A stretch of 46,321 nucleotides of DNA from Treponema sp. (GCA_003245635.1 QKCO01000016.1:1-46321); one strand, 5' to 3'. Positions 5,217 to 42,966 are shown, numbered from the stretch's first letter. Translations and numbers: made by a program. Notes: generated from the sequence alone by a model not told the origin.

Positions 5217-5237
5217 CTGGTATACCTTGTATACGTT
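5217..5237. promoter_or_regulatory. candidate GntR-family operator (TGGTATACCTTGTATAC)
   Basis: Perfect 8-bp palindrome GGTATACC (5219-5226) followed by TTGTATAC. It sits just 5' of the RBS of the 294-aa gene. A near-identical motif occurs at 42945-42966. Confidence 0.4.
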
Positions 5238-5311
5238 CGTTCTACAGACTTGCTGCGTCTCTTTACCGTTTGCTGAAACGTGAGTGTTCGGCTATGCCGT
5301 TCTTAGTTCAT

Positions 5312-6826
5312 TCACTTTTTTGTTATTGCCTCCTTGATCTTCCCGACGATCATCCGAGGAATCCCGATCTGACTCAGGATCGTGTAGACAATCATGGCGA
5401 GAACGATCAGCGCGATCGGCCGCGTAACGAAAGGAGCGAAACTGCCGTCCGCGCCCTGCAGCGCCCGCCGGATATTGGTATCCGCCAGGGGCCCCAGAAT
5501 CACTCCGAGCACGATGGGCGCGGCGGGGTACTTCAGGCGATCGAAGGCATAGCCGAGAAGGCCGAACAGGAACATGACATAGAGATCGAAGATATTGATG
5601 TTGAGCGCGTAGCTTCCGATAATGGACAGCACAGCGACGATCGGCATCAGGATATACGGCTTGACCTTCAGAATATTCGGCGCGACATGGCAGATTGCCA
5701 GCGCGAATATCCGCATCACGAAAGCGGCCAGCAGCAGTATTCCTCCCATCTTGAAAATGAAGGTGGGGAACTCGAACGAGAGCATGGGGCCCGGCCGGAT
5801 GCCGTGCAGCCACAGCGCTCCCAGAAGGACCGCCGCCGGAGCGCTTCCGGGGATGGCGAGGCTGAGCAGTGGTATCAGCGCTCCGCCGATCGCGGCGTTG
5901 TTCGCCGTCTCGGCGGCGATGACGCCGTCGTAGGAACCGGTGCCGAATTTCTCAGGAGTCTTGCTGGCTTTCTTAGCCTGGTCGTAGGAGAGCCAGGCGG
6001 CGACATCCTCGCCGACGCCAGGGATCGCGCCGATGAAGGTTCCGATGGCGCCGGAACGCAGTATCGTCGGCGTGAACCGTCTGAGCATGGAGAACATGCT
6101 CATCTTCTCGGTCTTGCCGATTCCCGTCACTTTCGCCTCGCCCGGCTCAGCGGACAATTCGGCGATCACGTTCGGGATTCCGAACAAGCCGATCATGGCG
6201 GAGACGAACGCGACGCCTCCGAGCAAACCCATAATGTTGAATGTGTATCGGGGATACGAATAGATTCCTTCGAAGCCGATCGTCGAAATCGCGAGCCCCA
6301 GGAGGCCACCGATCCACCCCTTGATAACCTTCCCGGTCGCCGATAGGGAACCGCAGATCATGACGCCGAAAATAGCCAGCAATGCGAACTCTGCCGAAGT
6401 GAAGTTCAGCGCCAGCTTCTGCAGCAGCGGAGTGAAGCCCGCCAGGCAGATCATCCCGAACAGCGTTCCCAAGAAGGAAGCTATGAACGAAAGTTTGAGC
6501 GCCGTGCCGCCCTCGCCCTTGACGGCGAGCGGATGGCCGTCGAGGACCGTCGCCGCGGCGGAACCCGTCCCCGGTATTCCGATCAGAACCGACGATATCG
6601 AACCGCCCGATATGCCGCCGACATAGATGCCGAGAAGCACTATAAGCGCGACGTCGGTCGACATTCCATATGTGAGCCCCGCGAGCAGCGCGATGCCCAT
6701 GGTCGCGGTAAGCCCCGGCAACGCGCCCATGATCAGTCCGGCGACGGAGCTTACGGCCAGCAACAGAATATTCTGCACGGTGATCAAGTGCACTAATTCG
6801 GTGAAGAGACCAATTATCGAGTTCAT
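5312..6826 (-). CDS. tctA: tripartite tricarboxylate transporter permease TctA
   Basis: 504 aa, polytopic, with a glycine-rich TctA signature (GALPGLTATMGIALL, GIYVGGISGGSISSVLIGIPG). GAGAGGA RBS upstream. Confidence 0.9.
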   Translation of the reverse strand: MNSIIGLFTELVHLITVQNILLLAVSSVAGLIMGALPGLTATMGIALLAGLTYGMSTDVALIVLLGIYVGGISGGSISSVLIGIPGTGSAAATVLDGHPLAVKGEGGTALKLSFIASFLGTLFGMICLAGFTPLLQKLALNFTSAEFALLAIFGVMICGSLSATGKVIKGWIGGLLGLAISTIGFEGIYSYPRYTFNIMGLLGGVAFVSAMIGLFGIPNVIAELSAEPGEAKVTGIGKTEKMSMFSMLRRFTPTILRSGAIGTFIGAIPGVGEDVAAWLSYDQAKKASKTPEKFGTGSYDGVIAAETANNAAIGGALIPLLSLAIPGSAPAAVLLGALWLHGIRPGPMLSFEFPTFIFKMGGILLLAAFVMRIFALAICHVAPNILKVKPYILMPIVAVLSIIGSYALNINIFDLYVMFLFGLLGYAFDRLKYPAAPIVLGVILGPLADTNIRRALQGADGSFAPFVTRPIALIVLAMIVYTILSQIGIPRMIVGKIKEAITKK

Positions 6827-6842
6827 TCGTTTTCCTCTCTGC

Positions 6843-7388
6843 TTACGGCAGGGGTATCAGCGCATAATGCGAGAACCCGTAACTGACGATGAAGGAAGTC
6901 AGACCGCTGATGATCGTTATCTTCGCAAGCACTTTCCAGCTGAATTTCTCGTCTTTGAAAACCATCATGGTGATGAACAGGTAAAGGAAGGTAGAAATCT
7001 CGTATTGCACCCGCCCGATCATTACGTAGATATAGAGGACCAGAAGTCCCGTCGCGATCGACCATCTCCGGAAATGGGCCGTCTTAAAATAGGCAAGAGC
7101 TCTCTTGATATCCTCGCGATGGATTCCCTTCGATTCGGGAACGATCTGAATGAATAGGATCGCGAGGGCGATGAACATGCCGATGCTGATGATGATGGGG
7201 AAAACAGCCGGCGCCGTATACCATTTCTGCGGATCTCCGGTCACCGACTCTACCGGCATGCGCAGCGCGCCTATGAAGTAGAAGATGGTCGCGATCAGCA
7301 AGATCCCTCCGAAGATGAGATCTTTTTTCCGTAGGATTCTATTCTGTTCTTGTTCTTCGGTCTCGGAAATGTCTCTTTCGTCTGCCAT
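6843..7388 (-). CDS. tctB: tripartite tricarboxylate transporter small subunit TctB
   Basis: Small 4-TM membrane protein between tctC and tctA. Start chosen as ATG at 7388; the TTG at 7403 is also possible. Confidence 0.65.
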   Translation of the reverse strand: MADERDISETEEQEQNRILRKKDLIFGGILLIATIFYFIGALRMPVESVTGDPQKWYTAPAVFPIIISIGMFIALAILFIQIVPESKGIHREDIKRALAYFKTAHFRRWSIATGLLVLYIYVMIGRVQYEISTFLYLFITMMVFKDEKFSWKVLAKITIISGLTSFIVSYGFSHYALIPLP

Positions 7389-7440
7389 ACCGTCCACCTG
7401 CAAACCCGGCTCGGGATTTACGTCTTACCGTTCGTCGATC

Positions 7441-7470
7441 ACCGGAAAACGATTCTGATGCATGCCGCGC
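7441..7470 (-). promoter_or_regulatory. intercistronic stem-loops downstream of tctC
   Basis: CATGC-CGC-GCATG (7441-7453) overlaps ATGGGCGG-TTAG-CCGCCCAT (7451-7470; 8-bp perfect stem). No immediate U-tract follows on the minus-strand RNA. Confidence 0.35.
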
Positions 7471-7525
7471 ATGGGCGGTTAGCCGCCCATACACGGCAGT
7501 TCCAGATAAGCCAGCGCCCCTTGGC

Positions 7526-8557
7526 TTAAGGCTTCGCGATCCCGAAATCGCTGGGGGATTTCTTGGCCGCACCGAGGTCGTACAACGCCCAGGAATAAAC
7601 GGAATCCAGCTCCTTGGTTAGGTCGGCGGCTTCTTTTCCCTGGATACCGAGAAGATCGAACTTGGTATCGTTCGAAAGCTTTTTCATCAAATCCGATTTC
7701 ATCGCCACGGTGAACGCTTTCTGGTATGCATCCTTGATGTTCTGGGGCGTATCGCCGGGGATGCCGACGCCGACCCATACTTTTGGAGCAGGGAGCTTAT
7801 TGAAATCGGGATACAGTCCTGAAATCGCCGGAATCTCGCCGAATCCTTCCATCTTTACCGGCTCTTTCTCGATAACCGCGAGCGGCTTCAGTTTTCCGGC
7901 AAGAATGTACTCCCGCTGCTCCGCAAGTCCGGTGAGCGTGAAATCGACCTCGTGCGAGAGCGCCGCGACCATAGAAGGCTGGCTGCCTTCGTAGGGCATA
8001 TGATTGATTTCGAGTCCGGATACCTTCTCAAGCTGGGAAACTTTGAGATCCCATACGCTGCCGGCGGAGGAGCCGGAGGACTTGAGCTTTTTCGATTTGC
8101 CGGCGTTGATCAAATCCTGGATCGATTTATAGGGAGAATCTTCCGGAACGGACAAAACGCCGGGAGTCCCCATGGACATCAGGTAGTCCCATTTATCGTT
8201 GGTCACGTCGAAAGCGCCCACGACGTTGAGGGAATGCACGCCGGAAGAGCAGCCGAACAAAGTATAGCCGTCATGCTTCTGATTCCAAACATAATTCGCG
8301 GCAACGCCGCCCGCGCCGCCGGTCATGTTCACGACGGAAAAGGGAACGCCGAAATACTCTTCGAAAGCTTTTCCCAGGCCGCGCGCGGAAAGATCCGTGG
8401 CGCCGCCGGCTCCTGCAAATACGACGATGGATACCGGCCGAGCGGGCTTCCACTCTCCGGAGGACGCGCTGCTCGCTTCCTTTCTACCGTTGGCGAATGC
8501 CGTTGCCCCCAACAGCAAACAGAGCAGCAGAACCAGTGAATTTTTACCGAACTTCAT
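7526..8557 (-). CDS. tctC: tripartite tricarboxylate transporter substrate-binding protein TctC (Bug family)
   Basis: 343 aa with an N-terminal signal peptide and Bug/TctC family motifs (GGATDLSARGL...VNMTGGAGGV). AAGGAGG RBS upstream. Confidence 0.9.
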   Translation of the reverse strand: MKFGKNSLVLLLCLLLGATAFANGRKEASSASSGEWKPARPVSIVVFAGAGGATDLSARGLGKAFEEYFGVPFSVVNMTGGAGGVAANYVWNQKHDGYTLFGCSSGVHSLNVVGAFDVTNDKWDYLMSMGTPGVLSVPEDSPYKSIQDLINAGKSKKLKSSGSSAGSVWDLKVSQLEKVSGLEINHMPYEGSQPSMVAALSHEVDFTLTGLAEQREYILAGKLKPLAVIEKEPVKMEGFGEIPAISGLYPDFNKLPAPKVWVGVGIPGDTPQNIKDAYQKAFTVAMKSDLMKKLSNDTKFDLLGIQGKEAADLTKELDSVYSWALYDLGAAKKSPSDFGIAKP

Positions 8558-8792
8558 ACTAGATCCTCCTTAGTTCAACCCTGCAGGATTACTGCTTTAG
8601 TCGACTTTAGAAATCATTTTAATACACTTCTGAATATTGTCAATTTATTTCGCTTTATAATAAATCTATTTTTTGATATAATGAATTCATTTATAGATAA
8701 ATATCGCCTTATTTAAAGAGCTGAGAAACATTCTTGACGGAAAAGTTCCGAGGGAGTAATCTGATTTCACTTTAGTAAGATAGGATTCATAT
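8558..8792. promoter_or_regulatory. AT-rich divergent promoter region (tctC leftwards, gntR rightwards)
   Basis: 235 bp that is visibly far more AT-rich than the rest of the window, lying between the tctC and GntR starts, with multiple TATAAT/TTGAC-like hexamers. Confidence 0.5.
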
Positions 8793-9545
8793 ATGACTGA
8801 AAAGAATTCAAACAAACAAAAACCCTCGATGGATAAAGAACCGAGCGATGCTATCGTCATGGTCCACAACGCTTTGCGGGAAAAAATCATGAACAAGGAA
8901 CTGCTGCCGGGTGAAAAGATCAACCAGATTGCGGAGGCCAACCTACTTCATGTCAGCCGCACACCCGTGGTCAATGCATTGCATCGGCTTGAGTCGGAGG
9001 GCTTGGTAGACCGAACCCAGAATTCAGGTTTTACCGTACACCGCCTATCCATAGGTGAGCTTCAGGAGTTATTCGATCTGCGTGAGGTTTTCGACATCAT
9101 AGTAGCCAACGATTTGGCGATAAACGCTACCGATGAGGAAATCGACGTTCTCGAGAATCTATTTTCCCACTATTTAACGCATCCTGAAGAGTTGACGGTA
9201 GAGACCTACCGTGCGCTGGACCTGGAATTTCATACGCTGCTTGTCAAATACTGCCGCAACAGCATGATGCATAAGATCTACGATAATTTTCAGATACTTG
9301 CGAGAACCTATACGGCCGGACTGATCCGCCACTATACAGAAACGCTGCAGGAACACATGACCATCATAAACGCCTTTCGGCAACACGATCCGAAGGCCGC
9401 GGAAAAGGAAATGCGAGAACACAATGCTAAGACGACCTCTTTGATTCATGAAACCATATCGGGACTCAAGCGAATGGGGCTTGATCCCGGCACGATCCAT
9501 GTCGATGATGTCATGCTTTCGCGAAACGATCGCGCGGCGCCCTAA
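8793..9545 (+). CDS. GntR-family transcriptional regulator (FadR/FCD C-terminal domain)
   Basis: N-terminal winged HTH (GEKINQIAEANLLHVSRTPVVNALHRLESEGLV) plus an FCD-type helical C-terminal domain, 250 aa. Confidence 0.85.
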   Translation: MTEKNSNKQKPSMDKEPSDAIVMVHNALREKIMNKELLPGEKINQIAEANLLHVSRTPVVNALHRLESEGLVDRTQNSGFTVHRLSIGELQELFDLREVFDIIVANDLAINATDEEIDVLENLFSHYLTHPEELTVETYRALDLEFHTLLVKYCRNSMMHKIYDNFQILARTYTAGLIRHYTETLQEHMTIINAFRQHDPKAAEKEMREHNAKTTSLIHETISGLKRMGLDPGTIHVDDVMLSRNDRAAP

Positions 9546-9637
9546 TATCGGAGGAATGGAGCCGAAGCCATCCATCGGATTTATTTGACATTTAAGTCAT
9601 ATTTGAGAAATTTCTTCCTTATAGAAGGAGAGCCTTC

Positions 9638-10057
9638 ATGTTCGATTTCAGCCTTTCCTGGGTTCCGCTCGTCGTCGTCGCGCTCGCCAACTTCTTCATG
9701 AGCTGGCTCTGGTATTCCCCGATCCTGTTCATGAAGCCCTGGGCAAAAGCCCTCGGCACCTACGGCAAGACGGAAATGACAGAAGCCGAGAAGCGCGCCA
9801 TGCCCTTCCTTTTCGCCAGCGGACTCCTCTCGTCCTTCATCCTATCTTTCGGCCTGCAGGCGGTGGTCCGCGGACTCGGCGCCGAAAGCTTCGCGCAGGG
9901 AGCGCTCGCCGGAACGGTGCTGTGGGCGGTCTTCGCGCTCACCCACAGCCTCAATACGCTCTGGGAGGGCCGCAAACCGATCGTGCTCCTAATCAACAAC
10001 GGCCTGTTCCTGCTCACTTACGCGCTTTTCGGCGGTACCGTCGCCGTCTGGCGTTGA
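9638..10057 (+). CDS. DUF1761 family membrane protein
   Basis: The MFDFSLSW... start, 4 TM segments and 139 aa are typical of the DUF1761 architecture. GAAGGAG RBS upstream. Confidence 0.65.
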   Translation: MFDFSLSWVPLVVVALANFFMSWLWYSPILFMKPWAKALGTYGKTEMTEAEKRAMPFLFASGLLSSFILSFGLQAVVRGLGAESFAQGALAGTVLWAVFALTHSLNTLWEGRKPIVLLINNGLFLLTYALFGGTVAVWR

Positions 10058-10126
10058 CGCCGCCGCGCCGTTCTTCCTGGACTTTTCGCGCGATTACCGC
10101 TATTTTACCCGGATCAAGGAGTAACC

Positions 10127-10633
10127 ATGGACAACACGCGCGTACTGTTCGAAACGACCCTCGGAAATATCACGATAGAGCTCGACGACGAGAAGGCGCC
10201 CAATACCGCCAAGAATTTCGCCGACTACGCCCGCTCGGGCTTCTACGACGGCACGATCTTCCACCGGATCATCCCCGGCTTCGTCGTGCAGGGCGGCGGT
10301 ATGGAGAGCGGCATGAAGCAGAAAAAGGGCATGGACCCGATCCGCAACGAGGCGACCAACGGCCTCAAGAACCTGCGCGGAACCCTCTCCATGGCGCGCA
10401 CAAACGATCCTCATTCCGCCACGAGCCAGTTCTTCATCAACCTGACGGACAACGCGGCGCTCGACCACAAGGCGCCGACCGGCGCGGGCTGGGGCTACGC
10501 CGTTTTCGGCAAGGTGGTCGAAGGCATGGACGTGGTCGACGCGATGGCGAAGGTTCCGACCGGCAGTGCGGGCTTCCACGACGACGTGCCGAAGACCGAC
10601 ATTTCCGTCGTCAAGGCGTCCGTGGTCGGCTGA
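10127..10633 (+). CDS. ppiB: peptidyl-prolyl cis-trans isomerase, cyclophilin type
   Basis: Cyclophilin signature ([14 protein letters not shown]...GTLSMAR...SQFFIN); 168 aa; AAGGAG RBS upstream. Confidence 0.9.
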
Positions 10634-10657
10634 TCGCGGTCCCCCGGCGGGAAGCCG

Positions 10658-11455
10658 CTACGCTTTCCGCTCTTTCTTTCCCCAGCCCACGGCCGCGCGC
10701 ATGCGGGCGTGGGCGGCGGGGGAGAATTCCAATTTAACCGAAAGAGAAGCGAAGCCCGGCGCGTCGGCCGACTGCGCGGCTTCGGAACATTCGCCCTTCA
10801 GCGTGCAGGAGAGATCCCCCTCGGAGGGCTCGAACTCCACGATATCGCCGGGAGCGGGAAGCGGTCCTTCGAATTCGCCGAAAACGCGCATCGACCGCGC
10901 TGATATAGCGACGACCTTCAATCGATCCGCGACGCAGCCTTCCTTCAGGATCGATACGTGCGCGCATTGGAGGGTCTTCTCGATCTGCTCGCCGGACAGG
11001 TCCCCGTCCGGCGCTTCCTTGTAGAAGAGCTCCGCTTCGTCGACATTCATGAAATACGACACGAGCAGTTCCTTGAACGCGAGAGGCGCGGTCGAAAACT
11101 CGATGTCGATGAAGCAGTAGGGGGAGGCGGGATCGGGCTTGCGGAACGCGACGATGCGGCAGACCAGAAAGAAGCTCTCCGGCTTCGAGCTGTAGGGCGA
11201 TTTCCAGGTGATCGAGAATTTCTGCTGCTTCGCCGCGTACGGCGAGAAGAAGCCGACTTCGCGTTCGCTCAAGAAAGCCAGAAGACTCGCCTTGCCGAGC
11301 GAAAGGTCGAACGGCACGCAGGAAACGAAGAATTCCTCGATCCGCAAATGGATGCTTTTCTTTATCAGCCCGAGCCGATCGAAAACCGCCGGCGTCAGCC
11401 GGAGCGTCCGATCCTGGTAGGCCGCTGCTTTCTCGTTGACCAGTCGGGAGTCCAT
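10658..11455 (-). CDS. hypothetical protein, possible PilZ-domain (c-di-GMP binding) protein
   Basis: Start ATG at 11455 (MDSRLVNEK) with GGAG upstream. The N-terminal half has an RxxR...(~30 aa)...DxSxG arrangement reminiscent of PilZ, but the match is weak. Confidence 0.45.
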   Translation of the reverse strand: MDSRLVNEKAAAYQDRTLRLTPAVFDRLGLIKKSIHLRIEEFFVSCVPFDLSLGKASLLAFLSEREVGFFSPYAAKQQKFSITWKSPYSSKPESFFLVCRIVAFRKPDPASPYCFIDIEFSTAPLAFKELLVSYFMNVDEAELFYKEAPDGDLSGEQIEKTLQCAHVSILKEGCVADRLKVVAISARSMRVFGEFEGPLPAPGDIVEFEPSEGDLSCTLKGECSEAAQSADAPGFASLSVKLEFSPAAHARMRAAVGWGKKERKA

Positions 11456-11566
11456 CGTTCCCACTTTACTCCAAGGCACGGCGGCGGTAAAGATCGGCCG
11501 AACGGCGGAGCGCCTTTTTGCATGCGAAATCTGTTCGGTTTCAGCCCGAACGTGCTATAACCGGGC

Positions 11567-14125: not shown

Positions 14126-14130
14126 GGGGA

Positions 14131-27910: not shown

Positions 27911-27959
27911 TTGACAGCTTGTACTACGCGGCCTAGTATTGTACTAGATGAATAGTACA
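27911..27959 (+). promoter_or_regulatory. promoter (TTGACA-17-TAGTAT) with overlapping inverted-repeat operator TGTACTA-N6-TAGTACA
   Basis: -35 at 27911-27916 and -10 at 27934-27939. The perfect 7-bp inverted repeat 27940-27959 spans the ATG of the YtrA-like gene, and a further GTACTAC copy sits at 27921-27927. The predicted TSS is within a few nt of the ATG. Confidence 0.45.
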
Positions 27960-28346
27960 AAGTCCGAAAAGCTAGTACGATTCACGCTCGACCCCGCGAG
28001 CGGCGTGCCCGTCTACCGGCAGATCATACGGCAGATCGAGCACTCGATCGTCGCCCGCAAGCTCGAGCCGGGGGACAAGCTGCCGACCATACGGTCCCTC
28101 GCGGTCGAGCTCAAGATCAACCCGAACACCATCGCGAAGGCGTACGGGGAACTGGAAATCCGCGGCCTCGTGACCACCCAGGTCGGCAGCGGAACCTTCA
28201 TCTCGACCAAGAAACCGGCGATGGAGGAGTTCGAGCGGGAGAATCTGCTCCTCGAGCGGACCGCCCGCTTCGTGCATGAAATGAGATCCCTCGGCGCGAG
28301 CAGGACGGAAATGATCGATCTCGTCCGCGACTTCAAGGAGGACTGA
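27948..28346 (+). CDS. GntR-family transcriptional regulator, YtrA subfamily
   Basis: 132 aa with a winged HTH (DKLPTIRSLAVELKINPNTIAKAYGELEIRGLV) and a short C-terminal domain. It is followed by an ABC transporter operon. Confidence 0.8.
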   Translation: MNSTKSEKLVRFTLDPASGVPVYRQIIRQIEHSIVARKLEPGDKLPTIRSLAVELKINPNTIAKAYGELEIRGLVTTQVGSGTFISTKKPAMEEFERENLLLERTARFVHEMRSLGASRTEMIDLVRDFKED

Positions 28347-28347
28347 C

Positions 28348-36352: not shown

Positions 36353-36360
36353 CCGGGGAC

Positions 36361-36567: not shown

Positions 36568-36574
36568 AAGAACC

Positions 36575-36588: not shown

Positions 36589-36661
36589 TAATATACAACC
36601 TTTTGTGGAGAGCGCGAGCAAAATCGCCTATACTTGTCTAAAACGCCGCTCGGAGGGACCC

Positions 36662-36910: not shown

Positions 36911-36924
36911 CGATTGAGTTCGGG

Positions 36925-36953
36925 GCCGGCCGACGCCGGGACGTCGGTCCGGC
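36925..36953. terminator. GC-rich hairpin between the convergent regulator and hydrogenase-like genes
   Basis: GCCGGCCGACG-ccggga-CGTCGG(t)CCGGC forms an 11-bp stem with one bulge and no U-tract. Confidence 0.3.
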
Positions 36954-36958
36954 ATGCC

Positions 36959-38305
36959 TCAGAACTCCCGTTCGAAAAGGCGGCCCTTGCCGCTTTTCAT
37001 GATCGCCTCGGGGCCGAAGATCCCGAGCTTTCCGAGAATTTCCTTCATGCAGTCGCTGTCGACGGCGACGCCGATCGCCGATGATACGGCGAAAGAGTCG
37101 ACGGACGATTTCCCCTCCTCCCGCGGGATGAGGGCCTTCGGACCGCCGACGCAACCGCCGACGCAGCCCATGCCCTCGATGAAGGTCGCGCCGGCCTTTC
37201 CCGCGCCTGCCCGAGCGAGCAGATCCTTGCAGGCGGGAACGCCGTCCGCCGCCGCGACGCTCAGATAGCGCGCCTTTTCAGGGTACAGGGCGGCGATCGC
37301 CTCGGACACGGCTATCGATACGCCTCCCGCGCGCGCGTACAGCCTCCCGCCGCGCGAACTGTACTCGAAGGAAGACTCCCCCGTCATAGCCCCGGGATCG
37401 ATACCGGCCGCCGCGAACACGTCCCTGATCTCGGCGAACGTAAACACATGGTCGATATCCCCGGCGAGGTCGGCCTCCTTCGATTCTGCCTTCTTGGCGA
37501 CGCAGGGCCCCACGAAGACGACCGCGCAGCCGGGGCTCAGGAGCTTGAGGACCCGGCCCGCCGCGATCATCGGCGAGACGGACGGCGAGACGTGCTTGAC
37601 CAGGTCCTTGTAAACGCGCTTGAGCATGGCCACCCAGATGGGGCAACAGCAGGAGGAAATGAGGAAATCGTCCTTGGAAAGGACGTGCGCGTCGAACTCG
37701 CCGGCTTCCTTCATCGTCAGCATGTCGGCGAAGAAGGCGACTTCGACCATGTCGGCATAGCCGAGCTTCTTGAAGGCTGCGCGAAGCTTCTCGATCGTCG
37801 CGTCCGGCCCGAACTGCCCGATGATTGCCGGAGCGACGGCGGCGACGACCGGCCGGCCCTCGCGTAGGAGCTTGGCGGCGGGGATGAACTCGACCCGGTC
37901 GGCAAGGACGCCATCGGGACAGGCTTCCACGCAGAGGCCGCAATCCACGCACTTGGAGCGGTCGATGGTCAGCCCGTTCGTCTTGCGGTCGACCATGATC
38001 GCGTGGAAGGGACAGGCGCCCGCGCAGGGTGCGCCGCCGGGCCGGTCCCGGCAGCCCTCGTTCGAACACGTTCCGGCCGAGACGACGACCTTTCCGTCCG
38101 CGGCCGAGGCTTCCACATCGGCGGCGAGCCGTCTCCCGAAATCCGCTCCGAACGGGGTGCCGACGCCGCAGAGATTGGCGACCATGAAGGCGGCGCGCGC
38201 TCTCTCCTCCCCTGCTCCGTCGACGATCGAATCCGCCTCTTCGGCGATCCGCCGGTCCCATGCGGCCCGCACGAGGCGCATGAACGCCTCATCCCTATCG
38301 ATCAT
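36959..38305 (-). CDS. [FeFe]-hydrogenase-like protein (H-cluster domain plus 2x[4Fe-4S] ferredoxin-like region plus N-terminal extension)
   Basis: H-cluster motif variants are L1 SSCCCPIW, L2 GPCVAKKAE and L3 EGMGCVGGCVGGP. Preceded by CVDCGLCVEACP and C-x4-C-x8-C-x3-CP iron-sulfur motifs. GGGGGA RBS upstream. Confidence 0.8.
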   Translation of the reverse strand: MIDRDEAFMRLVRAAWDRRIAEEADSIVDGAGEERARAAFMVANLCGVGTPFGADFGRRLAADVEASAADGKVVVSAGTCSNEGCRDRPGGAPCAGACPFHAIMVDRKTNGLTIDRSKCVDCGLCVEACPDGVLADRVEFIPAAKLLREGRPVVAAVAPAIIGQFGPDATIEKLRAAFKKLGYADMVEVAFFADMLTMKEAGEFDAHVLSKDDFLISSCCCPIWVAMLKRVYKDLVKHVSPSVSPMIAAGRVLKLLSPGCAVVFVGPCVAKKAESKEADLAGDIDHVFTFAEIRDVFAAAGIDPGAMTGESSFEYSSRGGRLYARAGGVSIAVSEAIAALYPEKARYLSVAAADGVPACKDLLARAGAGKAGATFIEGMGCVGGCVGGPKALIPREEGKSSVDSFAVSSAIGVAVDSDCMKEILGKLGIFGPEAIMKSGKGRLFEREF

Positions 38306-38364
38306 CGGCTTCCCCCTTTTTCGTTTCCCTAAGCATAGGCTAAAGGGGGAGCCGACGCAAAGCG

Positions 38365-38388
38365 GGAAGCGGCGCGCGCTCCGCTTCC
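38365..38388 (-). promoter_or_regulatory. stem-loop between gudD and the hydrogenase-like gene
   Basis: GGAAGCGG-cgcgcgct-CCGCTTCC forms an 8-bp perfect stem in the 85-nt gap. Confidence 0.4.
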
Positions 38389-38390
38389 GT

Positions 38391-39674
38391 CTACCAGCGC
38401 GTCGCCTGGAACTTCCAACCGGGTACTTTTTTCTGCATCTCGATCTCGTCGTCGCGGTCCTCGATGCCGCAGCGCAGGTAGTTCGCGTGCAGCCGCGCCA
38501 GGGCTTCCCGGTCGAGCTCCACGCCGAGCCCCGGCTCGCGCGGCACCTCCACGGCGCCGTCCTCGATCTTGATCTTCCCGCCGACGATGACTTCCTCCCG
38601 CTGCCAGGGGTAGTGGGTGTCCGCCTCGTAGGCGAGCTCGTCCAGCGCGCCGGCCAGGTGGATCATCGCCGCGAAGGAGATGCCGACGTGGCTGTTGGAG
38701 TGCATCGAGAGCTTGCGGCCGAAGGTGCGGCAGACGCGGCTGAGGTCCATCGACGCCTGGAGGCCTCCCCAGATGTGGTGGTCGGAGAGGATGATGTCTT
38801 CGGAGCCGTGCCGGATGCTGCCGGGGAGCTCGTCGAAGTTCGTCGTGCACATGTTGGTCGCCAGCGGTATCTTGATCGCCTTGCGGAGGGCGGCCATCGT
38901 CTCCTGCCCGCGGCAGGGGTCCTCGAAGTACTGCAGGACGCCTTCGAGCTCCTTGCCGTACTTGATGGAAGTCTCGAGCGACCAGAGCGCGTTCGGATCG
39001 ATGCGCAACGGCATCGACGGCCCGAAGGCGTCGCGGAGAGCGAGCATGGTGTCGGTCTCCACGCGCGGCTCGAACACGCCGCCCTTGAGCTTGAGGGAGG
39101 CGAAGCCGAAGCGCTTCACCATCGCCTGGGCCTGGGCTACGAGCCCCGCCGGATCGAGAGCCGCGGCCTGAAGATCCTTCTCCCAACCGGCCGCCGCCTG
39201 ATCCCGTTCGAAGCCGAACTCGCCGCCCGAGCCTTCGTACTTGTAGAAGAGGTAGGCCGCGAAGTCGACCCGGTCGCGCACGCGCCCGCCGAGGATGTCG
39301 ACCACCGGGCGCCCGCTGTCCTTGCCGATGATGTCGAACAGGGCCACGTCGATGCCCGAATGCACGCGCAGGGCGAGCTGGCGCGCCGCGTAGAGCGCCT
39401 TGGGATCAGGCGCCGAACCGGCCAGGCGTTCCTCGATGGCACGGCGGATCGCGGTCCGCTGGTAGGGGTCCCTGCCGACGACGACGTCGCGGATCGCATC
39501 GTAGGCCGCCAGCGCGGCGGAGCTTCCGGGGATCTCGCCCAGGCCGTAGATGCCGCGGTCGGTGACCAGCTCCACGATGATGCGCAGGGCGTAGGGCGCG
39601 TGGAGGCCGGCCGCGTTCAGCAGAGGCGGGTCGGAAACGGCGATGGGAGTGGCGCGCAATTCTTGAATCTTCAT
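38391..39674 (-). CDS. gudD: glucarate dehydratase (enolase superfamily)
   Basis: 427 aa. Close similarity to E. coli GudD throughout, including the C-terminal ...ARDD..MQ..IPGW region (our DRDDEIEMQKKVPGW) and enolase-superfamily metal ligands. Confidence 0.85.
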   Translation of the reverse strand: MKIQELRATPIAVSDPPLLNAAGLHAPYALRIIVELVTDRGIYGLGEIPGSSAALAAYDAIRDVVVGRDPYQRTAIRRAIEERLAGSAPDPKALYAARQLALRVHSGIDVALFDIIGKDSGRPVVDILGGRVRDRVDFAAYLFYKYEGSGGEFGFERDQAAAGWEKDLQAAALDPAGLVAQAQAMVKRFGFASLKLKGGVFEPRVETDTMLALRDAFGPSMPLRIDPNALWSLETSIKYGKELEGVLQYFEDPCRGQETMAALRKAIKIPLATNMCTTNFDELPGSIRHGSEDIILSDHHIWGGLQASMDLSRVCRTFGRKLSMHSNSHVGISFAAMIHLAGALDELAYEADTHYPWQREEVIVGGKIKIEDGAVEVPREPGLGVELDREALARLHANYLRCGIEDRDDEIEMQKKVPGWKFQATRW

Positions 39675-39702
39675 ACGGTTTCCTTTCTCGTTGAGAGGCT
39701 GG

Positions 39703-40551
39703 TCAGCTCTTCACGGCGCCGGACGCGAGGCCCTGCACCAGGTAGCGCTGGAGGAAAATGAACAGAAGGACTATCGGGAGCGAGGTGAGGACCGAAGCGG
39801 CCATGACCGCGTTCCAGGGCGTCATATCGCCCGAGACGAGGGTCAGGAAGCCGATGGAGACCAGCTTCTTGGATTCGTGGCTGATGAAGCTCAGGGGATA
39901 GATGACGTTGTTCCAGCCGAGGATGAACGAGTAGGTCAGCGTCGCGACCAGGCCCGGAGCCGCGATGGGCAGCACCACCCGGAATATGGAGGACAGCCGC
40001 GAGCAGCCGTCGATCATCGCCGCCTCCTCGAGCTCCTTCGGGATGGCGGAGAAGTAGCCCTTCATCATCCAGATCGAATACGGCAGGGAGAAGGTGCAGA
40101 AGACGATGACGAGCGACAGGAGGTTGTTGTACAGCCCGAGCTTGATGATCAGGATGAGGAGCGGAATGGTCAGGACCATCTGCGGGAACATGTAGACGTA
40201 GAGGATGGCCTGCCCGATTCCGTCGCGCCGCTTGTAGGTGAAGCGCGCCAGGCTGTAGCCGGCAAGGATGGATATCGCGAGGCTGATCAGGCAGGAGACG
40301 CTCACGACGATGACGCTGTTCCACAGATATCGCTTGAACTGTATCTGTGAAGCGTAGTCGGTGCCGTTCCATACGTTGACGTAGCTCGAGAAGTCCGCGG
40401 ACGAAATGCCCAGGGACACGTCCCGGCTCATGACAGTCTCCACCGGAGCCAGGGAAGTCTTCACCATCCAGTAGATCGGAAAATCGAGCACGACGATGGC
40501 CAGGACAGCCGCCGCGTACAGGAAGATCATGTTTCGTCTTTCGCCGCGCAT
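39703..40551 (-). CDS. carbohydrate ABC transporter permease (MalG-like)
   Basis: Start ATG at 40551 with AAGGAGG upstream. EAA-loop region (AAMIDGCSRLSSIFRVVLP); 6 TM. Confidence 0.85.
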   Translation of the reverse strand: MRGERRNMIFLYAAAVLAIVVLDFPIYWMVKTSLAPVETVMSRDVSLGISSADFSSYVNVWNGTDYASQIQFKRYLWNSVIVVSVSCLISLAISILAGYSLARFTYKRRDGIGQAILYVYMFPQMVLTIPLLILIIKLGLYNNLLSLVIVFCTFSLPYSIWMMKGYFSAIPKELEEAAMIDGCSRLSSIFRVVLPIAAPGLVATLTYSFILGWNNVIYPLSFISHESKKLVSIGFLTLVSGDMTPWNAVMAASVLTSLPIVLLFIFLQRYLVQGLASGAVKS

Positions 40552-40553
40552 CG

Positions 40554-41444
40554 TCAGTCCTCCTTTTGAAGCTTCGCGAAGAAGAAGAGGAACAGCGCGA
40601 GGATGGCCAGGATCACCACGGAGAGTGCCGCGGCCTGGTCGTAGCGCATGTTCACGAAGGCGAATTCGTAGGCCAGCGTATTGAGGATGTGGGTGGAGCT
40701 CGAGGGGCCGCCGCGCGTCATAAGCCACACGACGTTGAACGCGTTGAAGGTCCAGATGACGCTCAGGATGACCGCGATGGTGAGAATGTTGCGCAGGCTC
40801 GGCAGCGTGATGTGGAAGAAGCGCTGGAACACGTTGGCGCCCTCGACCTTCCCCGCCTCGTAGAGTTCGTCGGGAATGGCCTGAAGACCGGCCAGAATCA
40901 TCAGCATGAACTGCGGATAGCCTAGCCAGATGCCGGCGGCCAACACGGAGGCCAAGGCCCAGTGCTTGTCGCCGAGGAAGTTGACTGCCTCATGGATCAA
41001 GCCGGCCCGCAGGAGCAGCAGGTTGACGATGCCGTACATGCTGTCGAGCATCCAGGACCAGGTGGTCAGGGAGGCGGTGATGGGCACGACCCAGGGCAGC
41101 ATGAGGAGCGCGCGCACCAGGCCGCGGCCCTTGAACCTGCGGTTGAGGAGCAGCGCGAGCAGCATGCCGAGCGCTAGCTTTCCGGCGGCGCCGACGAAGG
41201 CGTACACGAACGTATTGCGGAACGCCACGGCGAAGCGGGGATCGGAGAACACCTTCAGGTAGTTCGCGATGCCGACGAAAGGCTTGGCGATCTCCGTCGG
41301 CCGCCAGCGGAGGAAGCTCATCTGGAGCGAATACGCGACGGGGAAAACGATGATGCAGAGCAGGACGACTATCGCCGGGACGAGGAACATCTTTCCGGTG
41401 CGGTTGTCCCTCGCCTCCAGGGATACTCTCGATGTGCGGGCCAT
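40554..41444 (-). CDS. carbohydrate ABC transporter permease (MalF-like)
   Basis: 296 aa, 6 TM, EAA loop (EAGKVEGANVFQRFFHITLP); its stop overlaps the next start. Confidence 0.85.
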   Translation of the reverse strand: MARTSRVSLEARDNRTGKMFLVPAIVVLLCIIVFPVAYSLQMSFLRWRPTEIAKPFVGIANYLKVFSDPRFAVAFRNTFVYAFVGAAGKLALGMLLALLLNRRFKGRGLVRALLMLPWVVPITASLTTWSWMLDSMYGIVNLLLLRAGLIHEAVNFLGDKHWALASVLAAGIWLGYPQFMLMILAGLQAIPDELYEAGKVEGANVFQRFFHITLPSLRNILTIAVILSVIWTFNAFNVVWLMTRGGPSSSTHILNTLAYEFAFVNMRYDQAAALSVVILAILALFLFFFAKLQKED

Positions 41445-41536
41445 TCTTCCACCTACGGGTACGCTGATGCGGAGAAGCCGCGCCGGCCCCGGGAACCCGG
41501 AATCCGGCGCGTTTTCCTTTTTTCAGAAAATCTGCC

Positions 41537-42895
41537 TCATTCGAACGCGGACTTGACCTTGTCCTCAATTTCCTTGACCGTCTGCTCGGGCGTCCACTTG
41601 TCGACCGCGATGCGGGAAAGCGCGTCGTCCCAGACGAAGGAATTGTACGCGGCGTTCAGCTTGGGGTTCGGGTCTCCCGGGTAGCCGATGCCGGCGATGT
41701 ACTTGTTGGCCTCGAGGAACATGCGCTCGCGCTGGCCGATGGTGGAGAAGAAGGGATCGTCGATGACGTCGGCGCGGAGCGGGCCGTAGTAGCCGACGCC
41801 CATCTTCTTGAACATCTTGACCTGCGTATCCTTCTTGAGGAGGTAGAGCGCGAACTTCTTGGCGGCCGAAGCGGCGGGCGTCTTGAAGATCGTCAGGGAT
41901 TCGGGCGAAGCGCTCTGCACGCGGGTGCCGCGCGGCCCCTTGGGCGGCGGCGCGATGCCGACGTCGTCCTTCGAGAAGGTCGTGTTCGATCCGACGCCGA
42001 CCTTGGCCAGGATGCTGTTCGAGTTCATGACGATGCCGACCGTTCCGTTGAGGAAGTTGAGGTTGTTCGCGTTGCCGTCCCAGGTGACCACGCTTTCGGG
42101 CATGGCACCGCTCTCATAGAACTTCTTCAGGAAGGCGAAGGCCTCGACGCTTTCCTTGGAGTTGATAGCGACCTTGCCGGTCTTCGGGTCGAGGAAATGG
42201 CCGTCGAAGGAATTGACCAGCATCTGCGTGGTGCCGGCGGAGTCTCCGAAGCCCTTGCGGCTGTACTGAAAACCGGCGCCGTAGCGGTTCTGCGAAGCGT
42301 CGGTGATCTTCTTGGCGGTAGCCAACACGTCTTCCCAGCTGTCCAGGGCCTTCACGACCAGGCGGCCGCTCGCGTCCTTCTCGGGTTCGGGATTGAGGCC
42401 CGCGGCCTTCAGCCAGTCCTTGCGGTAATGGAGGCCGGAGAGGCGGGAGAGGAAGGGAACTTCGTACTGGACTCCGCCGAGCTGGAACATCCGAAGCACC
42501 GAGTCGGAGAACTTGTCCTTGCCGACCTGGGAAACGACGTCGGCCAGCGGCTCGACGGCGCCGGTCTCGGAGAATTCGAGTCCGGGGTTGATGTTCCAGA
42601 CGACCATCGCCGGGTACTGCTTGGCGGCGACGTTGGTGACCAGCTTCGTATGGAAATCGTTGGTGGGTATGCGGACGTAGTTGACCTTGATGCCGCTCTC
42701 CGCGGTGAAGTCGGCGGCGGCCTCGTCGAACGCGGCGATGATCTCCGGAACCGGGTTGTTGATCATCCATACGTCGATTTCCTTGGCCTCCGGAGCGGCG
42801 GCGGCTTCCTTGGAGCCGCCGGCAAAGACGGAAACTGCGGCGAGCGCCGTAATCAGGAACGCGCCCGCGGCGCGGGCGAACGGTCTCTTGTTCAT
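41537..42895 (-). CDS. ABC transporter extracellular solute-binding protein (family 1)
   Basis: 452 aa with a signal peptide and probable lipobox-like region (AVSVFAGGSKE). AGGAGG RBS upstream. Confidence 0.85.
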   Translation of the reverse strand: MNKRPFARAAGAFLITALAAVSVFAGGSKEAAAAPEAKEIDVWMINNPVPEIIAAFDEAAADFTAESGIKVNYVRIPTNDFHTKLVTNVAAKQYPAMVVWNINPGLEFSETGAVEPLADVVSQVGKDKFSDSVLRMFQLGGVQYEVPFLSRLSGLHYRKDWLKAAGLNPEPEKDASGRLVVKALDSWEDVLATAKKITDASQNRYGAGFQYSRKGFGDSAGTTQMLVNSFDGHFLDPKTGKVAINSKESVEAFAFLKKFYESGAMPESVVTWDGNANNLNFLNGTVGIVMNSNSILAKVGVGSNTTFSKDDVGIAPPPKGPRGTRVQSASPESLTIFKTPAASAAKKFALYLLKKDTQVKMFKKMGVGYYGPLRADVIDDPFFSTIGQRERMFLEANKYIAGIGYPGDPNPKLNAAYNSFVWDDALSRIAVDKWTPEQTVKEIEDKVKSAFE

Positions 42896-42944
42896 GAATG
42901 CCTCCTAGATTTGCGTTGTCTATCCCTTGATTTCTAACCGAAAG

Positions 42945-42966
42945 AATGGTATACCGCTTATACATG
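42945..42966. promoter_or_regulatory. candidate GntR-family operator (TGGTATACCGCTTATACATGG)
   Basis: GGTATACC perfect palindrome (42947-42954) followed by TTATACAT, in the divergent region between the ABC uptake operon and the FCD-GntR gene. Near-identical to the site at 5217-5237. Confidence 0.4.

What the first reader, a model, noticed from the sequence alone, without database searches (positions are those of the whole stretch)
5217..42966. A TGGTATACC-type operator shared by two GntR(FCD)-controlled loci with near-identical recognition helices
CTGGTATACCTTGTATACG sits at 5217-5237, immediately upstream of the RBS of the 294-aa gene in the tct operon. ATGGTATACCGCTTATACATGG sits at 42945-42966, in the divergent region between the glucarate-ABC operon and the GntR gene at 43091. 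Both match the GT-N-AC logic of FadR-type operators.

The two FCD-GntR proteins (8793 and 43091) have very similar recognition helices (HVSRTPVVNALHRLESEGLV versus GVSHIPVLEAMKRLEQDGLI). This points to paralogous regulators with overlapping specificity, or to one regulon covering the tricarboxylate and sugar-acid loci.
Basis: partly seen in the sequence, partly recalled or inferred. Interest (0 to 1): 0.6.

Follow-up and report, generated by a model that had tools for sequence, protein, structure and literature searches.

The report
One repressor's operator at two loci
Two copies of a short DNA site in this spirochaete genome are very probably binding sites for one sugar-acid repressor (the GntR gene at 43091), linking two separate gene clusters into one regulon; this is an ordinary kind of bacterial gene control, and the second GntR regulator has a different site of its own.

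Summary
The DNA observation is real. TGGTATACC-N3-TATAC occurs exactly twice in the window, at 5218-5234 and 42947-42963, both intergenic, where about 1e-4 is expected by chance.

Each site is a 19-bp composite. It has a strong FadR-type palindrome (TGGT-AT-ACCA, 9 of 10 bases) and a weaker (G)TATAC box 9 bp away.

The same composite is conserved upstream of orthologues of the regulator at 43091 (GntR-B) in four other spirochaete lineages. There it always overlaps the -10 region of a TTGACA or TTGATA promoter.

Across the GntR-B family, the first residue of the recognition helix tracks the box. His goes with TGGTATACCA, Gln with TGCTATAGCA, and Pro/Ala/Thr with TGATATATCA.

GntR-A (8793) and GntR-B are 29% identical, and their "recognition helices" match only at family-wide positions (10 of 20). 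GntR-A regions carry a different conserved palindrome, AATGAATTCATT (8680-8691).

The best reading is that GntR-B alone binds both sites. It would repress its divergent ABC/dehydratase operon by promoter occlusion, and gate the five enzyme genes downstream of tctA.

The tctA-proximal site is lineage-specific and its mechanism is inferred. Overall this is an ordinary new member of a known kind.

The parts
5218..5236 (.). Site A: 19-bp composite operator TGGTATACCTTGTATACGT. The strong box is 5218-5227 and the weaker box is 5227-5236. On the coding (minus) strand it reads ACGTATACA-AGGTATACCA-GGAGG, so it abuts the Shine-Dalgarno sequence of the 294-aa gene.
   Evidence: It has 2 mismatches to the consensus TGGTATAC-N3-GTATACCA derived from orthologous loci. 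Matches with up to 3 mismatches are expected 0.01 times in the window.
42947..42965 (.). Site B: 19-bp composite operator TGGTATACCGCTTATACAT. The strong box is 42947-42956, nearest the ABC operon, and the weaker box is 42956-42965.
   Evidence: In the 89%-identical relative L059 it lies in a 35-nt conserved island inside an otherwise diverged spacer. Equivalent sites occur in L001, L002/L003/L063 and L005.
42946..42975 (-). Predicted sigma-70-type promoter of the ABC/dehydratase operon: TTGACA (42975-42970), an 18-nt spacer, then TACCAT (42951-42946). Site B fills the spacer and the -10 hexamer.
   Evidence: 10 of 12 matches. The TTGACA hexamer is conserved next to the operator in L059, L001, L002/L003 and L005.
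43091..43789 (+). gntR-B: a GntR+FCD regulator with the recognition helix start S51-H52-I53-P54. It is the proposed binder of both sites.
38391..42895 (-). Operon divergent from gntR-B: solute-binding protein (41537-42895), two permeases (40554-41444 and 39703 to about 40570), and an enolase-superfamily dehydratase related to glucarate dehydratase (38391-39674).
   Evidence: The same gene order sits next to GntR-B orthologues in L001, L003, L005 and L059.
406..5206 (-). Five genes downstream of site A: a 294-aa protein of unknown family (4322-5206), an L-threonate dehydrogenase / tartronate-semialdehyde-reductase-like protein (3401-4318), a URO-D-like protein (2195-3316), an RraA-like aldolase (1432-2157) and a 2-hydroxyacid dehydrogenase (406-1416).
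   Evidence: Intergenic gaps are listed.
5312..8557 (-). tctC-tctB-tctA tripartite tricarboxylate-type transporter genes, upstream of site A on the same strand.
   Evidence: No terminator-like or promoter-like site was found in 5207-5311.
8793..9545 (+). gntR-A: a GntR+FCD regulator with the helix start S-R-T-P, divergent from tctC. It is not the predicted binder of the TGGTATACC sites.
8680..8691 (.). Palindrome AATGAATTCATT, the candidate GntR-A operator. It overlaps an extended -10-like TGATATAAT (8674-8682) facing gntR-A. It lies about 45 bp upstream of the TTGACA (8643-8638, minus strand) that faces tctC.
   Evidence: It is unique in the window. It occurs exactly twice in L054, both times in GntR-A-orthologue/tctC spacers. 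Related ATGAATGCAT and AATGTATTCATT repeats occur in L120 and L121. The promoter hexamers were read by eye.
43070..43079 (.). CGGGATGCCG, a decayed counterpart of the gntR-proximal box. The relative L059 has CGGTATACCG at the aligned position, and more distant orthologues have a full second operator there.

Best explanation
Both sites are operators for a single regulator, GntR-B (43091-43789). GntR-B belongs to a spirochaete clade of FCD-type GntR repressors.

**The operator.** It is a 19-bp composite. One part is a strong FadR-type palindrome, TGGT-AT-ACCA. The other is a weaker (G)TATAC box 9 bp away. Together they approximate TGGTATAC-N3-GTATACCA.

**Site B.**
- The operator fills the spacer and the -10 hexamer of the promoter of the divergent ABC-transporter/dehydratase operon (TTGACA-18-TACCAT).
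- A bound repressor would therefore exclude RNA polymerase.
- An effector, probably the transported sugar acid or its dehydration product, would bind the metal-containing FCD domain and release the repressor.

**Site A.**
- The same regulator would bind immediately upstream of the ribosome-binding site of the 294-aa gene. That position is inside the tctCBA-enzyme cluster, which is headed by a different regulator, GntR-A.
- No good promoter or terminator lies between tctA and site A.
- The bound repressor most likely blocks RNA polymerase reading through from the tctC promoter. Alternatively it blocks a weak internal promoter (TGTAGA-18-TACCAG).
- Either way, the five enzyme genes would be expressed only when both regulators permit it.

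**GntR-A.** It has its own operator, the palindrome AATGAATTCATT at 8680-8691.

**Shown:** the motif statistics, the conservation next to orthologues, the promoter overlap, the residue-box covariation, and the distinct GntR-A motif.

**Inferred:** actual binding, repression, the effector, the roadblock mechanism at site A, and the metabolic link between the loci.
For: 1. **Statistics.** The consensus was built only from other genomes. In the window it finds just these two sites with up to 3 mismatches, where 0.01 is expected. The 10-mer TGGTATACCA with up to 1 mismatch also hits only these two.
2. **Phylogenetic footprint.**
   - GntR-B orthologues at 53-89% identity have the same divergent SBP-permease-permease-dehydratase operon.
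   - They carry the composite site upstream.
   - Against L059, the operator plus the -35 hexamer form a 35-nt conserved island in a diverged spacer.
3. **Promoter overlap.**
   - In the window the site overlaps TTGACA-18-TACCAT.
   - In the orthologues, TTGACA-17 or TTGATA-17-TATACT promoters overlap every site. This was read.
4. **Covariation** (clusters are regulators grouped at 90% identity).
   - 5 of 6 His-type clusters have TGGTATACCA boxes.
   - 9 of 9 Gln-type clusters have exact TGCTATAGCA.
   - 6 of 6 Pro/Thr/Ala-type clusters have TGATATATCA.
   - Nine of the 33 loci also carry a one-mismatch match to a box of another class, or to their own class, away from the gntR promoter region (for example L001 at -1050, L013 at -312 and L021 at -590 and +439).
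5. **Family habit.** GntR-B-family members elsewhere sit next to tctC/tctA operons, with their boxes between gntR and tctC. A site in a tct cluster fits that habit.
6. **GntR-A is different.** It is 29% identical to GntR-B. It has its own palindrome, which is conserved in L054 (twice). Related palindromes occur in L120 and L121. None of these regions has GTATAC boxes.
7. **Pathway logic (inference).**
   - A glucarate-dehydratase-related enzyme is encoded at locus B.
   - An RraA-type pyruvate aldolase, a tartronate-semialdehyde-reductase-like dehydrogenase and a 2-hydroxyacid dehydrogenase are encoded at locus A.
   - Together these could form one acid-sugar pathway.
8. **Precedents.** The UxuR site is AAATTGGTATACCAATTT (PMC8092373). 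Weaker accessory boxes 7-12 nt from FadR-type palindromes are common (PMC4494728). NanR dimers bind GGTATA repeats cooperatively, and that operator recurs in three operons (PMC8012715).
Against: - Site A is not conserved. The tctA-294aa junction lacks it in the closest relative found (L054, 89%-identical 294-aa protein) and in L055, L057, L061 and L062.
- No promoter is recognisable at site A, so the roadblock mechanism is conjecture.
- One His-type orthologue (L004) has no box nearby.
- The covariation follows three clades. It therefore represents only about two independent changes.
- GntR-A keeps the canonical Arg-Thr residues, which many TGGT...ACCA-binding regulators also have. Sequence alone cannot exclude weak cross-binding.
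- Only 46 kb of this genome was available, so no genome-wide scan was possible.
- There are no binding data of any kind.
Confidence: 0.7

Rival explanations
1. One reading: GntR-A and GntR-B are paralogues with overlapping specificity, and both bind the TGGTATACC operator. Each would control its own locus through the shared motif, with cross-talk.
For: - Both are GntR+FCD proteins.
- Site A lies in the cluster adjacent to gntR-A.
- GntR-A has the canonical S-R-T-P helix start, typical of regulators that read TKGT/ACMA boxes (PMC4494728).
Against: - The proteins are 29% identical, and the helix segment is 10/20 identical. That is no more than either shares with an unrelated PDB GntR.
- GntR-A's own 235-bp divergent spacer has no such box.
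- Its orthologues in L054 (identical helix), L120 and L121 have none either. They share AATGAATTCATT-type palindromes instead.
- Within the GntR-B family, a single change at residue 52 goes with a different box.
Confidence: 0.1
2. Only site B is functional. Site A would be a chance or relic match with no regulatory role.
For: - Site A is absent from every homologous tctA-294aa junction examined.
- No promoter is detectable around it.
- It lies inside what looks like a single transcription unit.
Against: - It matches the orthologue-derived 19-bp consensus better than site B does (2 versus 3 mismatches), and 0.01 such matches are expected in the window.
- It is intergenic, keeps the two-box 9-bp architecture, and has the same weak-then-strong box order relative to the downstream gene as site B.
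- Relatives of GntR-B commonly regulate tct clusters.
Confidence: 0.1
3. Each locus has its own binder. GntR-B would bind site B. Site A would be bound by GntR-A, or by a third regulator encoded outside the window. The identity of the two sequences would be convergence on the common FadR-type core.
For: - TGGTATACCA-like cores are used by unrelated FadR-subfamily regulators such as UxuR.
- Only 46 kb of the genome is visible.
Against: - The identity extends beyond the core: 9 + 5 bases at the same 3-nt spacing, with the same accessory box.
- This is the architecture specific to GntR-B orthologue loci.
- The only other FCD-type GntR gene in the window is gntR-A, beyond a weak 132-aa GntR-like ORF.
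Confidence: 0.07
4. The shared sequence is a promoter element, a TATAC-type -10 region, rather than a repressor site.
For: The boxes coincide with predicted -10 hexamers in site B and in all orthologous sites.
Against: - Conservation covers a symmetric 19-bp composite, far more than a -10 hexamer.
- The box changes to GCTATAGC or GATATATC in step with a regulator residue.
- Site A has no matching -35 hexamer.
Confidence: 0.03

Closest known systems
E. coli UxuR/ExuR-type operators (FadR/FCD subfamily of GntR regulators, hexuronate regulon)
   Same: - The core is the same: the UxuR site is AAATTGGTATACCAATTT (PMC8092373) and the window's strong boxes are TGGTATACC(T/G).
[quoted passage not shown]
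- The regulator is of the FCD type, the genes are for sugar-acid catabolism, and the operator sits between or over the promoter hexamers.
   Different: - The regulator is not a UxuR/ExuR orthologue. No NCBIfam equivalog reached its cutoff, and the best PDB relatives reach only E about 1e-17.
- His replaces the canonical Arg at the start of the recognition helix.
- The outer AATT flanks are absent.
- A second box 9 bp away is always present.
FadR-subfamily palindromes with a weaker accessory box (Suvorova, Korostelev and Gelfand 2015, PMC4494728)
   Same: - TKGT/ACMA palindrome.
- A weaker additional box 7-12 nt from the site centre; here it is 9 nt.
- A single site in a divergent spacer.
   Different: - Spirochaetes were not in that survey's taxon table, as quoted.
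- The sister clades of GntR-B use CT/AG and AT/AT in place of the canonical GT/AC.
E. coli NanR and its (GGTATA)3 repeat operator (PMC8012715)
   Same: - An FCD-type GntR repressor that recognises repeated GGTATA-containing boxes with a short fixed period.
- Two or more boxes at a defined spacing are needed.
- The operator lies in or just downstream of the promoter.
- The same operator recurs at several operons of one regulon.
   Different: - NanR repeats are direct GGTATA hexamers bound by three dimers through a 32-residue N-terminal extension. Here the boxes are palindromic (G)GTATAC(C), usually two per site.
- GntR-B matches the NanR model only weakly (55 bits against a cutoff of 260).
- The stoichiometry here is unknown.

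Membership tests
FadR-subfamily (FCD) GntR operator | Palindrome with TKGT / ACMA boxes separated by 2-3 nt (PMC4494728) | tested here: met
   Both strong boxes read TGGT-AT-ACC plus one variable base, 9 of 10 to TGGTATACCA. The definition is quoted.
FadR-subfamily (FCD) GntR operator | Lies in the 5' non-coding region of the regulated operon and/or of the regulator gene, overlapping promoter elements | tested here: met
   Site B fills the spacer and -10 hexamer of TTGACA-18-TACCAT in the gntR-B/ABC divergent region. Site A is intergenic and abuts an RBS, but no promoter was found there, so the feature is met for B and only partly for A.
FadR-subfamily (FCD) GntR operator | Conserved next to orthologous regulators in other genomes | tested here: met
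   For site B it is present in L059, L001, L002/L003/L063 and L005 and absent in L004. For site A it is not conserved in L054, L055, L057, L061 or L062.
FadR-subfamily (FCD) GntR operator | Physical binding by the cognate regulator, relieved by an effector | not testable with these tools
   This needs EMSA or footprinting with purified protein.
GntR/FCD regulator (protein side, GntR-B) | N-terminal GntR winged helix plus a C-terminal FCD domain with conserved Asp/His metal ligands | tested here: met
   Pfam GntR (52 bits) and FCD (62.8 bits) both match. D124, H140, H144, H187 and H209 are invariant in 40 homologues. The expectation of three His and one Asp is quoted. Which residues actually ligate the metal was not tested.
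   The segments are 10/20 identical, no higher than to the unrelated 7u5q (12/20 and 11/20). The helix starts are R-T versus H-I, and the proteins are 29% identical overall.
   GntR-A spacers in the window, L054 (two copies), L120 and L121 have no GTATAC boxes and share AATGAATTCATT-like palindromes. L122 has almost no spacer.
UxuR/ExuR hexuronate regulon | The regulator is orthologous to UxuR/ExuR and the regulated genes are uxa/uxu hexuronate genes | tested here: inconclusive
   No curated family reached its cutoff for GntR-B. The regulated genes are an ABC transporter and a glucarate-dehydratase-related enzyme, not uxaCA/uxuAB. No direct comparison with the UxuR sequence was made.
NanR-type repeat operator | Three direct GGTATA repeats bound cooperatively by dimers through an N-terminal extension | tested here: not met
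   There are two palindromic boxes per site in the window. The match to the NanR model is 55 bits against a cutoff of 260 and covers only the C-terminal part. This is a resemblance in logic only.

The most novel reading that the evidence does not exclude
A spirochaete clade of FCD-GntR repressors has replaced the canonical Arg at the first position of the recognition helix (my alignment places it at FadR Arg45, from memory). It appears to use that single residue as a specificity switch.

- His reads TG-G-TATA-C-CA.
- Gln reads TG-C-TATA-G-CA.
- Pro, Ala or Thr reads TG-A-TATA-T-CA.
- The last two box types break the family's GT...AC rule.
- The boxes are arrayed with a 9-bp period.

This would let many paralogues control TTT and ABC acid-sugar operons in one cell without cross-talk.

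The window would also show a recent regulon capture. A His-type operator has appeared inside an operon headed by an unrelated GntR regulator, so the enzyme genes would need two signals.
Probability: 0.4. Interest if true: 0.45.

Novelty: new member of a known kind. Interest (0 to 1): 0.3.

Why it matters
- It assigns a concrete, testable operator (TGGTATAC-N3-GTATACCA) to an uncharacterised spirochaete GntR/FCD regulator.
- It predicts that regulator's regulon: an ABC transporter with a glucarate-dehydratase-like enzyme, plus five enzyme genes in a distant tct cluster.
- That link suggests the two loci encode parts of one acid-sugar pathway. This helps annotate several enzymes of unknown role, including a rare 294-aa protein family.
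- It corrects a tempting but wrong inference: GntR helix similarity at family-conserved positions says nothing about shared specificity.
- The residue-to-box covariation gives a small, clean system for testing how one recognition-helix residue sets base preference in GntR regulators.
- None of this changes how GntR regulation is understood.

Tried and rejected
**Repeat or mobile element.**
- I asked whether the two sites belong to a larger repeat or mobile element. The whole-window repeat search found no family covering them, and the flanks are unrelated.

**RNA-level element at site A.**
- The tctA-294aa spacer does not fold better than shuffles (z = -0.03).
- Rfam found nothing in the window.

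**Internal promoter or terminator at site A.**
- The consensus scan found neither.
- By eye, only a weak TGTAGA-18-TACCAG lines up with site B's TTGACA-18-TACCAT.

**Conservation of site A.**
- Five loci with homologues of the 294-aa gene were fetched (L054, L055/56, L057/58, L061, L062). None has the motif.

**Locating the source genome for a genome-wide scan.**
- GntR-B has no exact match in the contig index.
- GntR-A has one exact match, on a 4.4-kb contig only.

**Metagenome scan for more His-type loci.**
- It added only a duplicate of the L002 lineage (L063), plus Pro/Ala-type loci.

**Neighbours of His-type orthologues.**
- I checked L001, L004 and L005 for locus-A-type enzymes. I found only a 29%-identical 2-hydroxyacid dehydrogenase in L001 and a frameshifted HIBADH-like gene in L004. 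That is too weak to use.

**Structure of the 294-aa protein.**
- The model is confident (pLDDT 90.5).
- Foldseek gave only marginal HPPD hits (TM 0.17).
- The AFDB library was unavailable.

Full report

CTGGTATACCTTGTATACG is at 5217-5235 and ATGGTATACCGCTTATACATGG is at 42946-42967, so the coordinates were 1-2 bases off.

Their common part is TGGTATACC-N3-TATAC, 14 specified bases at identical spacing. It occurs exactly twice in the 46,321-base window. From the window's composition (62% GC) about 8e-5 occurrences are expected. Dinucleotide shuffles give 0.4 matches even with three mismatches allowed.

Both copies are intergenic.
- Site A lies in the 105-bp gap between the tctA stop (5312) and the ATG of a 294-aa gene (5206, minus strand). 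On the coding strand it reads ACGTATACAAGGTATACCA-GGAGG-aattca-ATG, so the box shares its last A with the Shine-Dalgarno sequence.
- Site B lies in the 195-bp divergent spacer between a solute-binding-protein gene (start 42895, minus strand) and a GntR gene (start 43091).

Pfam confirms the gene calls.
- Around site A: tctC/B/A, then the 294-aa protein with no family, an NAD_binding_2 dehydrogenase, a URO-D-like protein, an RraA-like protein and a 2-hydroxyacid dehydrogenase. A GntR+FCD regulator, here called GntR-A (8793), is divergent from tctC.
- Around site B: a solute-binding protein, two permeases and an enolase-superfamily enzyme. A second GntR+FCD regulator, GntR-B (43091), is divergent from them.

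**2. What the site is.**

Homologues of GntR-B are almost all from spirochaetes (Sphaerochaetaceae, Treponemataceae and relatives). I fetched 53 genomic loci with relatives of GntR-B.

The closest ones keep the same divergent SBP-permease-permease-dehydratase operon. These are L001 Oceanispirochaeta at 62%, L002/L003 Sphaerochaeta at 58% and L005 at 53%. L059, found by exact-protein look-up, is 89% identical.

All of them carry the motif in the spacer, usually twice.
- One copy is next to the SBP operon: L002 TGGTATACACGGTATACCA, L001 TGGTATACCGCGTATACTA, L005 TGGTATATACGGTATACCA, L059 TGGTATACCGCTTATACCT.
- One copy is just upstream of the regulator's own RBS: CGGTATACCATGTATACT(T/A).

The general form is a 19-bp imperfect inverted repeat, TGGTATAC-N3-GTATACCA. 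It can equally be described as two (G)GTATAC(C) boxes 9 bp apart, one strong and one weaker.

I then searched the window with this consensus, which was derived without using the window. It returned only 5218-5236 (2 mismatches) and 42947-42965 (3 mismatches), against 0.01 expected.

In an alignment of the window spacer with L059, the operator plus the adjacent TGTCAA form a 35-nt island with one change, inside otherwise diverged sequence.

**3. Promoter context.**

The consensus scan finds one sigma-70-like promoter in the gntR-B/SBP spacer. It is TTGACA (42975-42970), an 18-nt spacer, then TACCAT (42951-42946), pointing into the SBP operon. Site B occupies its spacer and -10 hexamer.

In the orthologues, the sequences show two recurring arrangements.
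- A TTGACA lies 4-12 nt from the operator on the SBP side.
- A TTGATA or TTGGTG, a 17-nt spacer and TATACT lie over the gntR-proximal operator.

These were read by eye, not by the scan tool. Every orthologous site therefore overlaps a -10 region, the classic arrangement for repression by promoter occlusion.

The window lacks a good gntR-proximal copy. At the position where L059 has CGGTATACCG, the window has CGGGATGCCG (43070-43079).

**4. Who binds it.**

The box co-varies with one residue of the regulator family.
- Aligned homologues are invariant through the recognition helix (S-x-IP[VI]LEA[ML]KRLEQDGL) except at x, which is residue 52 of GntR-B.
- I scanned -1500 to +2200 around each of 33 loci for three 10-mers, allowing up to one mismatch, and de-duplicated the regulators at 90% identity.
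- 5 of 6 His-type clusters carry TGGTATACCA-type boxes.
- 9 of 9 Gln-type clusters carry exact TGCTATAGCA.
- 6 of 6 Pro/Thr/Ala-type clusters carry TGATATATCA.
- Every perfect match belongs to the regulator's own class, and so do the boxes next to the gntR promoters. The partition is not perfectly clean at one mismatch. Nine of the 33 loci also have a one-mismatch hit away from the gntR promoter region. Most are to a box of another class (L011 and L065 at -1190, L013 at -312, L021 at -590 and +439). The rest are to their own class (L001 at -1050, L013 at -1379, L020 at -1170).
- The Pro/Thr/Ala-type boxes lie between the regulator gene and a downstream tctC, and about 1 kb upstream.

Residue 52 aligns with Arg45 of E. 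coli FadR in my own alignment to the FadR sequence recalled from memory. The role of Arg45 as a DNA-contact residue is also from memory.

There is a caveat. The three residue classes are three clades, so the association amounts to about two independent changes rather than many.

Even so, the covariation, the footprints and the promoter overlap together make GntR-B (His52) the natural binder of GGTATACC boxes.

**5. The second regulator.**

The evidence goes against it.
- The two 20-residue segments are 10/20 identical. The identical positions (VS, PV, A, RLE, GL) are the ones conserved across the family.
- An unrelated GntR regulator in the PDB (7u5q) is 12/20 identical to GntR-A and 11/20 to GntR-B.
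- The whole proteins are 29% identical.

GntR-A's own 235-bp divergent spacer has no GTATAC box. It contains the palindrome AATGAATTCATT at 8680-8691, which is unique in the window.
- The same 12-mer occurs exactly twice in locus L054. Both copies lie in spacers between GntR-A orthologues (about 64% identical, with the identical helix) and tctC genes.
- More distant GntR-A homologues, L120 and L121 (57-61%), have repeated ATGAATGCAT, AATGTATTCATT and TTGCATTCAT elements at the same place and no GTATAC boxes. In L122 (54%) the genes almost abut, so there is no comparable spacer.
- In the window the palindrome overlaps an extended -10-like TGATATAAT (8674-8682) facing gntR-A. This was read by eye.

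So each regulator has its own candidate operator.

**6. Site A in particular.**

The 294-aa gene belongs to a rare family, with 15 homologues in the 5.8-billion-protein search.

In every locus recovered it is flanked by genes of the same cluster type.
- In four lineages it follows tctA directly: L054, L055/L056, L057 and L061.
- In L062 a second HIBADH-like gene precedes it instead of tctA.
- In every locus held long enough to show the downstream gene, a HIBADH/LtnD-like dehydrogenase gene follows it. In L056 and L058 that gene is cut off at the contig end.

None of these junctions has the motif, including L054, whose protein is 89% identical. Site A is therefore a lineage-specific acquisition.

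It is still unlikely to be noise.
- It is the better of the two matches to the external consensus.
- It keeps the two-box architecture.
- On the coding strand its box order (weak, then strong, then gene) is the same as at site B.
- Relatives of GntR-B habitually regulate tct clusters.

No promoter-like or terminator-like site was found between tctA and the 294-aa gene. The best alignment to site B's promoter is a weak TGTAGA-18-TACCAG, read by eye.

I therefore favour a repressor bound at -12 to -30 from the start codon. It would block polymerase coming from the tctC promoter, or block a weak internal promoter. That would place the five enzyme genes under GntR-B in addition to whatever GntR-A does at the head of the cluster. 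This step is inference.

**7. Why one regulon could make sense.**

NCBIfam gives these closest matches.
- The locus-B enzyme is closest to glucarate dehydratase (282 bits, below the 829-bit equivalog cutoff).
- The locus-A dehydrogenase is closest to L-threonate dehydrogenase or 2-hydroxy-3-oxopropionate (tartronate semialdehyde) reductase.
- The RraA-like protein is closest to 4-carboxy-4-hydroxy-2-oxoadipate-type pyruvate aldolases.

From established knowledge of the glucarate/galactarate pathway (my own knowledge), the sequence is dehydratase, then aldolase, then tartronate semialdehyde reductase. That pattern would be covered only by the two loci together. This is a plausible rationale, not a demonstration.

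**8. Comparison with what is known.**

- The strong box is a canonical FadR-subfamily palindrome. The subfamily has TKGT/ACMA boxes, with a GT-AC distance of 3 nt in most groups and 2 nt in some, including UxuR (PMC4494728).
- The E. coli UxuR site used in a biosensor is AAATTGGTATACCAATTT (PMC8092373).
- Weaker accessory boxes 7-12 nt from such palindromes were reported as common (PMC4494728).
- The closest analogy for repeated GGTATA-type boxes at a short fixed period, reused at several operons, is NanR. [quoted passage not shown]
- GntR-B is not a member of any of these orthologous groups. No curated model reached its cutoff, and the nearest solved structures are generic GntR/FCD proteins at E about 1e-17.

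**9. Verdict.**

- The DNA observation is confirmed.
- The operator interpretation is supported.
- The claim about near-identical helices and overlapping specificity is not supported.
- 'One regulon' is supported in a modified form: GntR-B alone, with site A a recent addition.
- This is a new member of a well-known kind of system. Interest is modest (0.3).
- The most interesting by-product is the residue-52/box covariation in the spirochaete clade.

Noticed in passing
window 330-389 and 3347-3406: Two copies (82% identical) of a 60-nt element. On the coding (minus) strand each folds into a long hairpin, with z = -4.1 and -4.5 against shuffles. One lies just after the 2-hydroxyacid dehydrogenase gene and the other just after the HIBADH-like gene. 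They may be terminators or REP-like stabilisers. They would split the enzyme cluster into 294aa-HIBADH and UROD-RraA-2HADH.
   Followed up: partly
[not shown]
   Followed up: partly
window 8680-8691; L054 791-802 and 6488-6499; L120/L121 about 7280-7320: The palindrome AATGAATTCATT, and ATGAATGCAT-type variants, is conserved in GntR-A/tctC divergent spacers. In the window it overlaps an extended -10-like TGATATAAT facing gntR-A. It is a candidate GntR-A operator that does not follow the GT...AC rule.
   Followed up: partly
loci L001-L023, L059, L063-L070 (regions around GntR-B homologues): In the spirochaete GntR-B family, residue 52 (His / Gln / Pro, Ala or Thr) goes with the box TGGTATACCA / TGCTATAGCA / TGATATATCA respectively. 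Boxes often form arrays of two or three with a 9-bp period, for example TGCTATATT-TGCTATAGCA-TCTATAGCA in L017.
   Followed up: yes
window 43070-43079 versus L059 2785-2794: The gntR-proximal box present in relatives (CGGTATACCG in L059, and full CGGTATACCATGTATACT sites in L001, L002 and L005) has decayed to CGGGATGCCG in the window. Direct autoregulation at that position may have been lost.
   Followed up: no
L055 about 9900-9960: In a Firmicutes relative, the same tctA-294aa junction carries a different array of palindromic boxes (GATAGCTATA, GGTAGCTATA, GGTAGCTACA) just before the RBS. L054 and L055 also share a GAATCTGCGA element. Some form of internal control at this junction may therefore recur with different regulators.
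   Followed up: no
window 36959-38305 (minus strand): A gene with an [FeFe]-hydrogenase large-subunit C-terminal domain plus 4Fe-4S ferredoxin domains lies 85 bp downstream of the dehydratase gene on the same strand. It may belong to the same transcription unit.
   Followed up: no
window 27948-28343 (plus strand): A 132-aa ORF matches the GntR-B family profile weakly (E = 5e-4). It is probably a small GntR/YtrA-like regulator unrelated to the finding.
   Followed up: no
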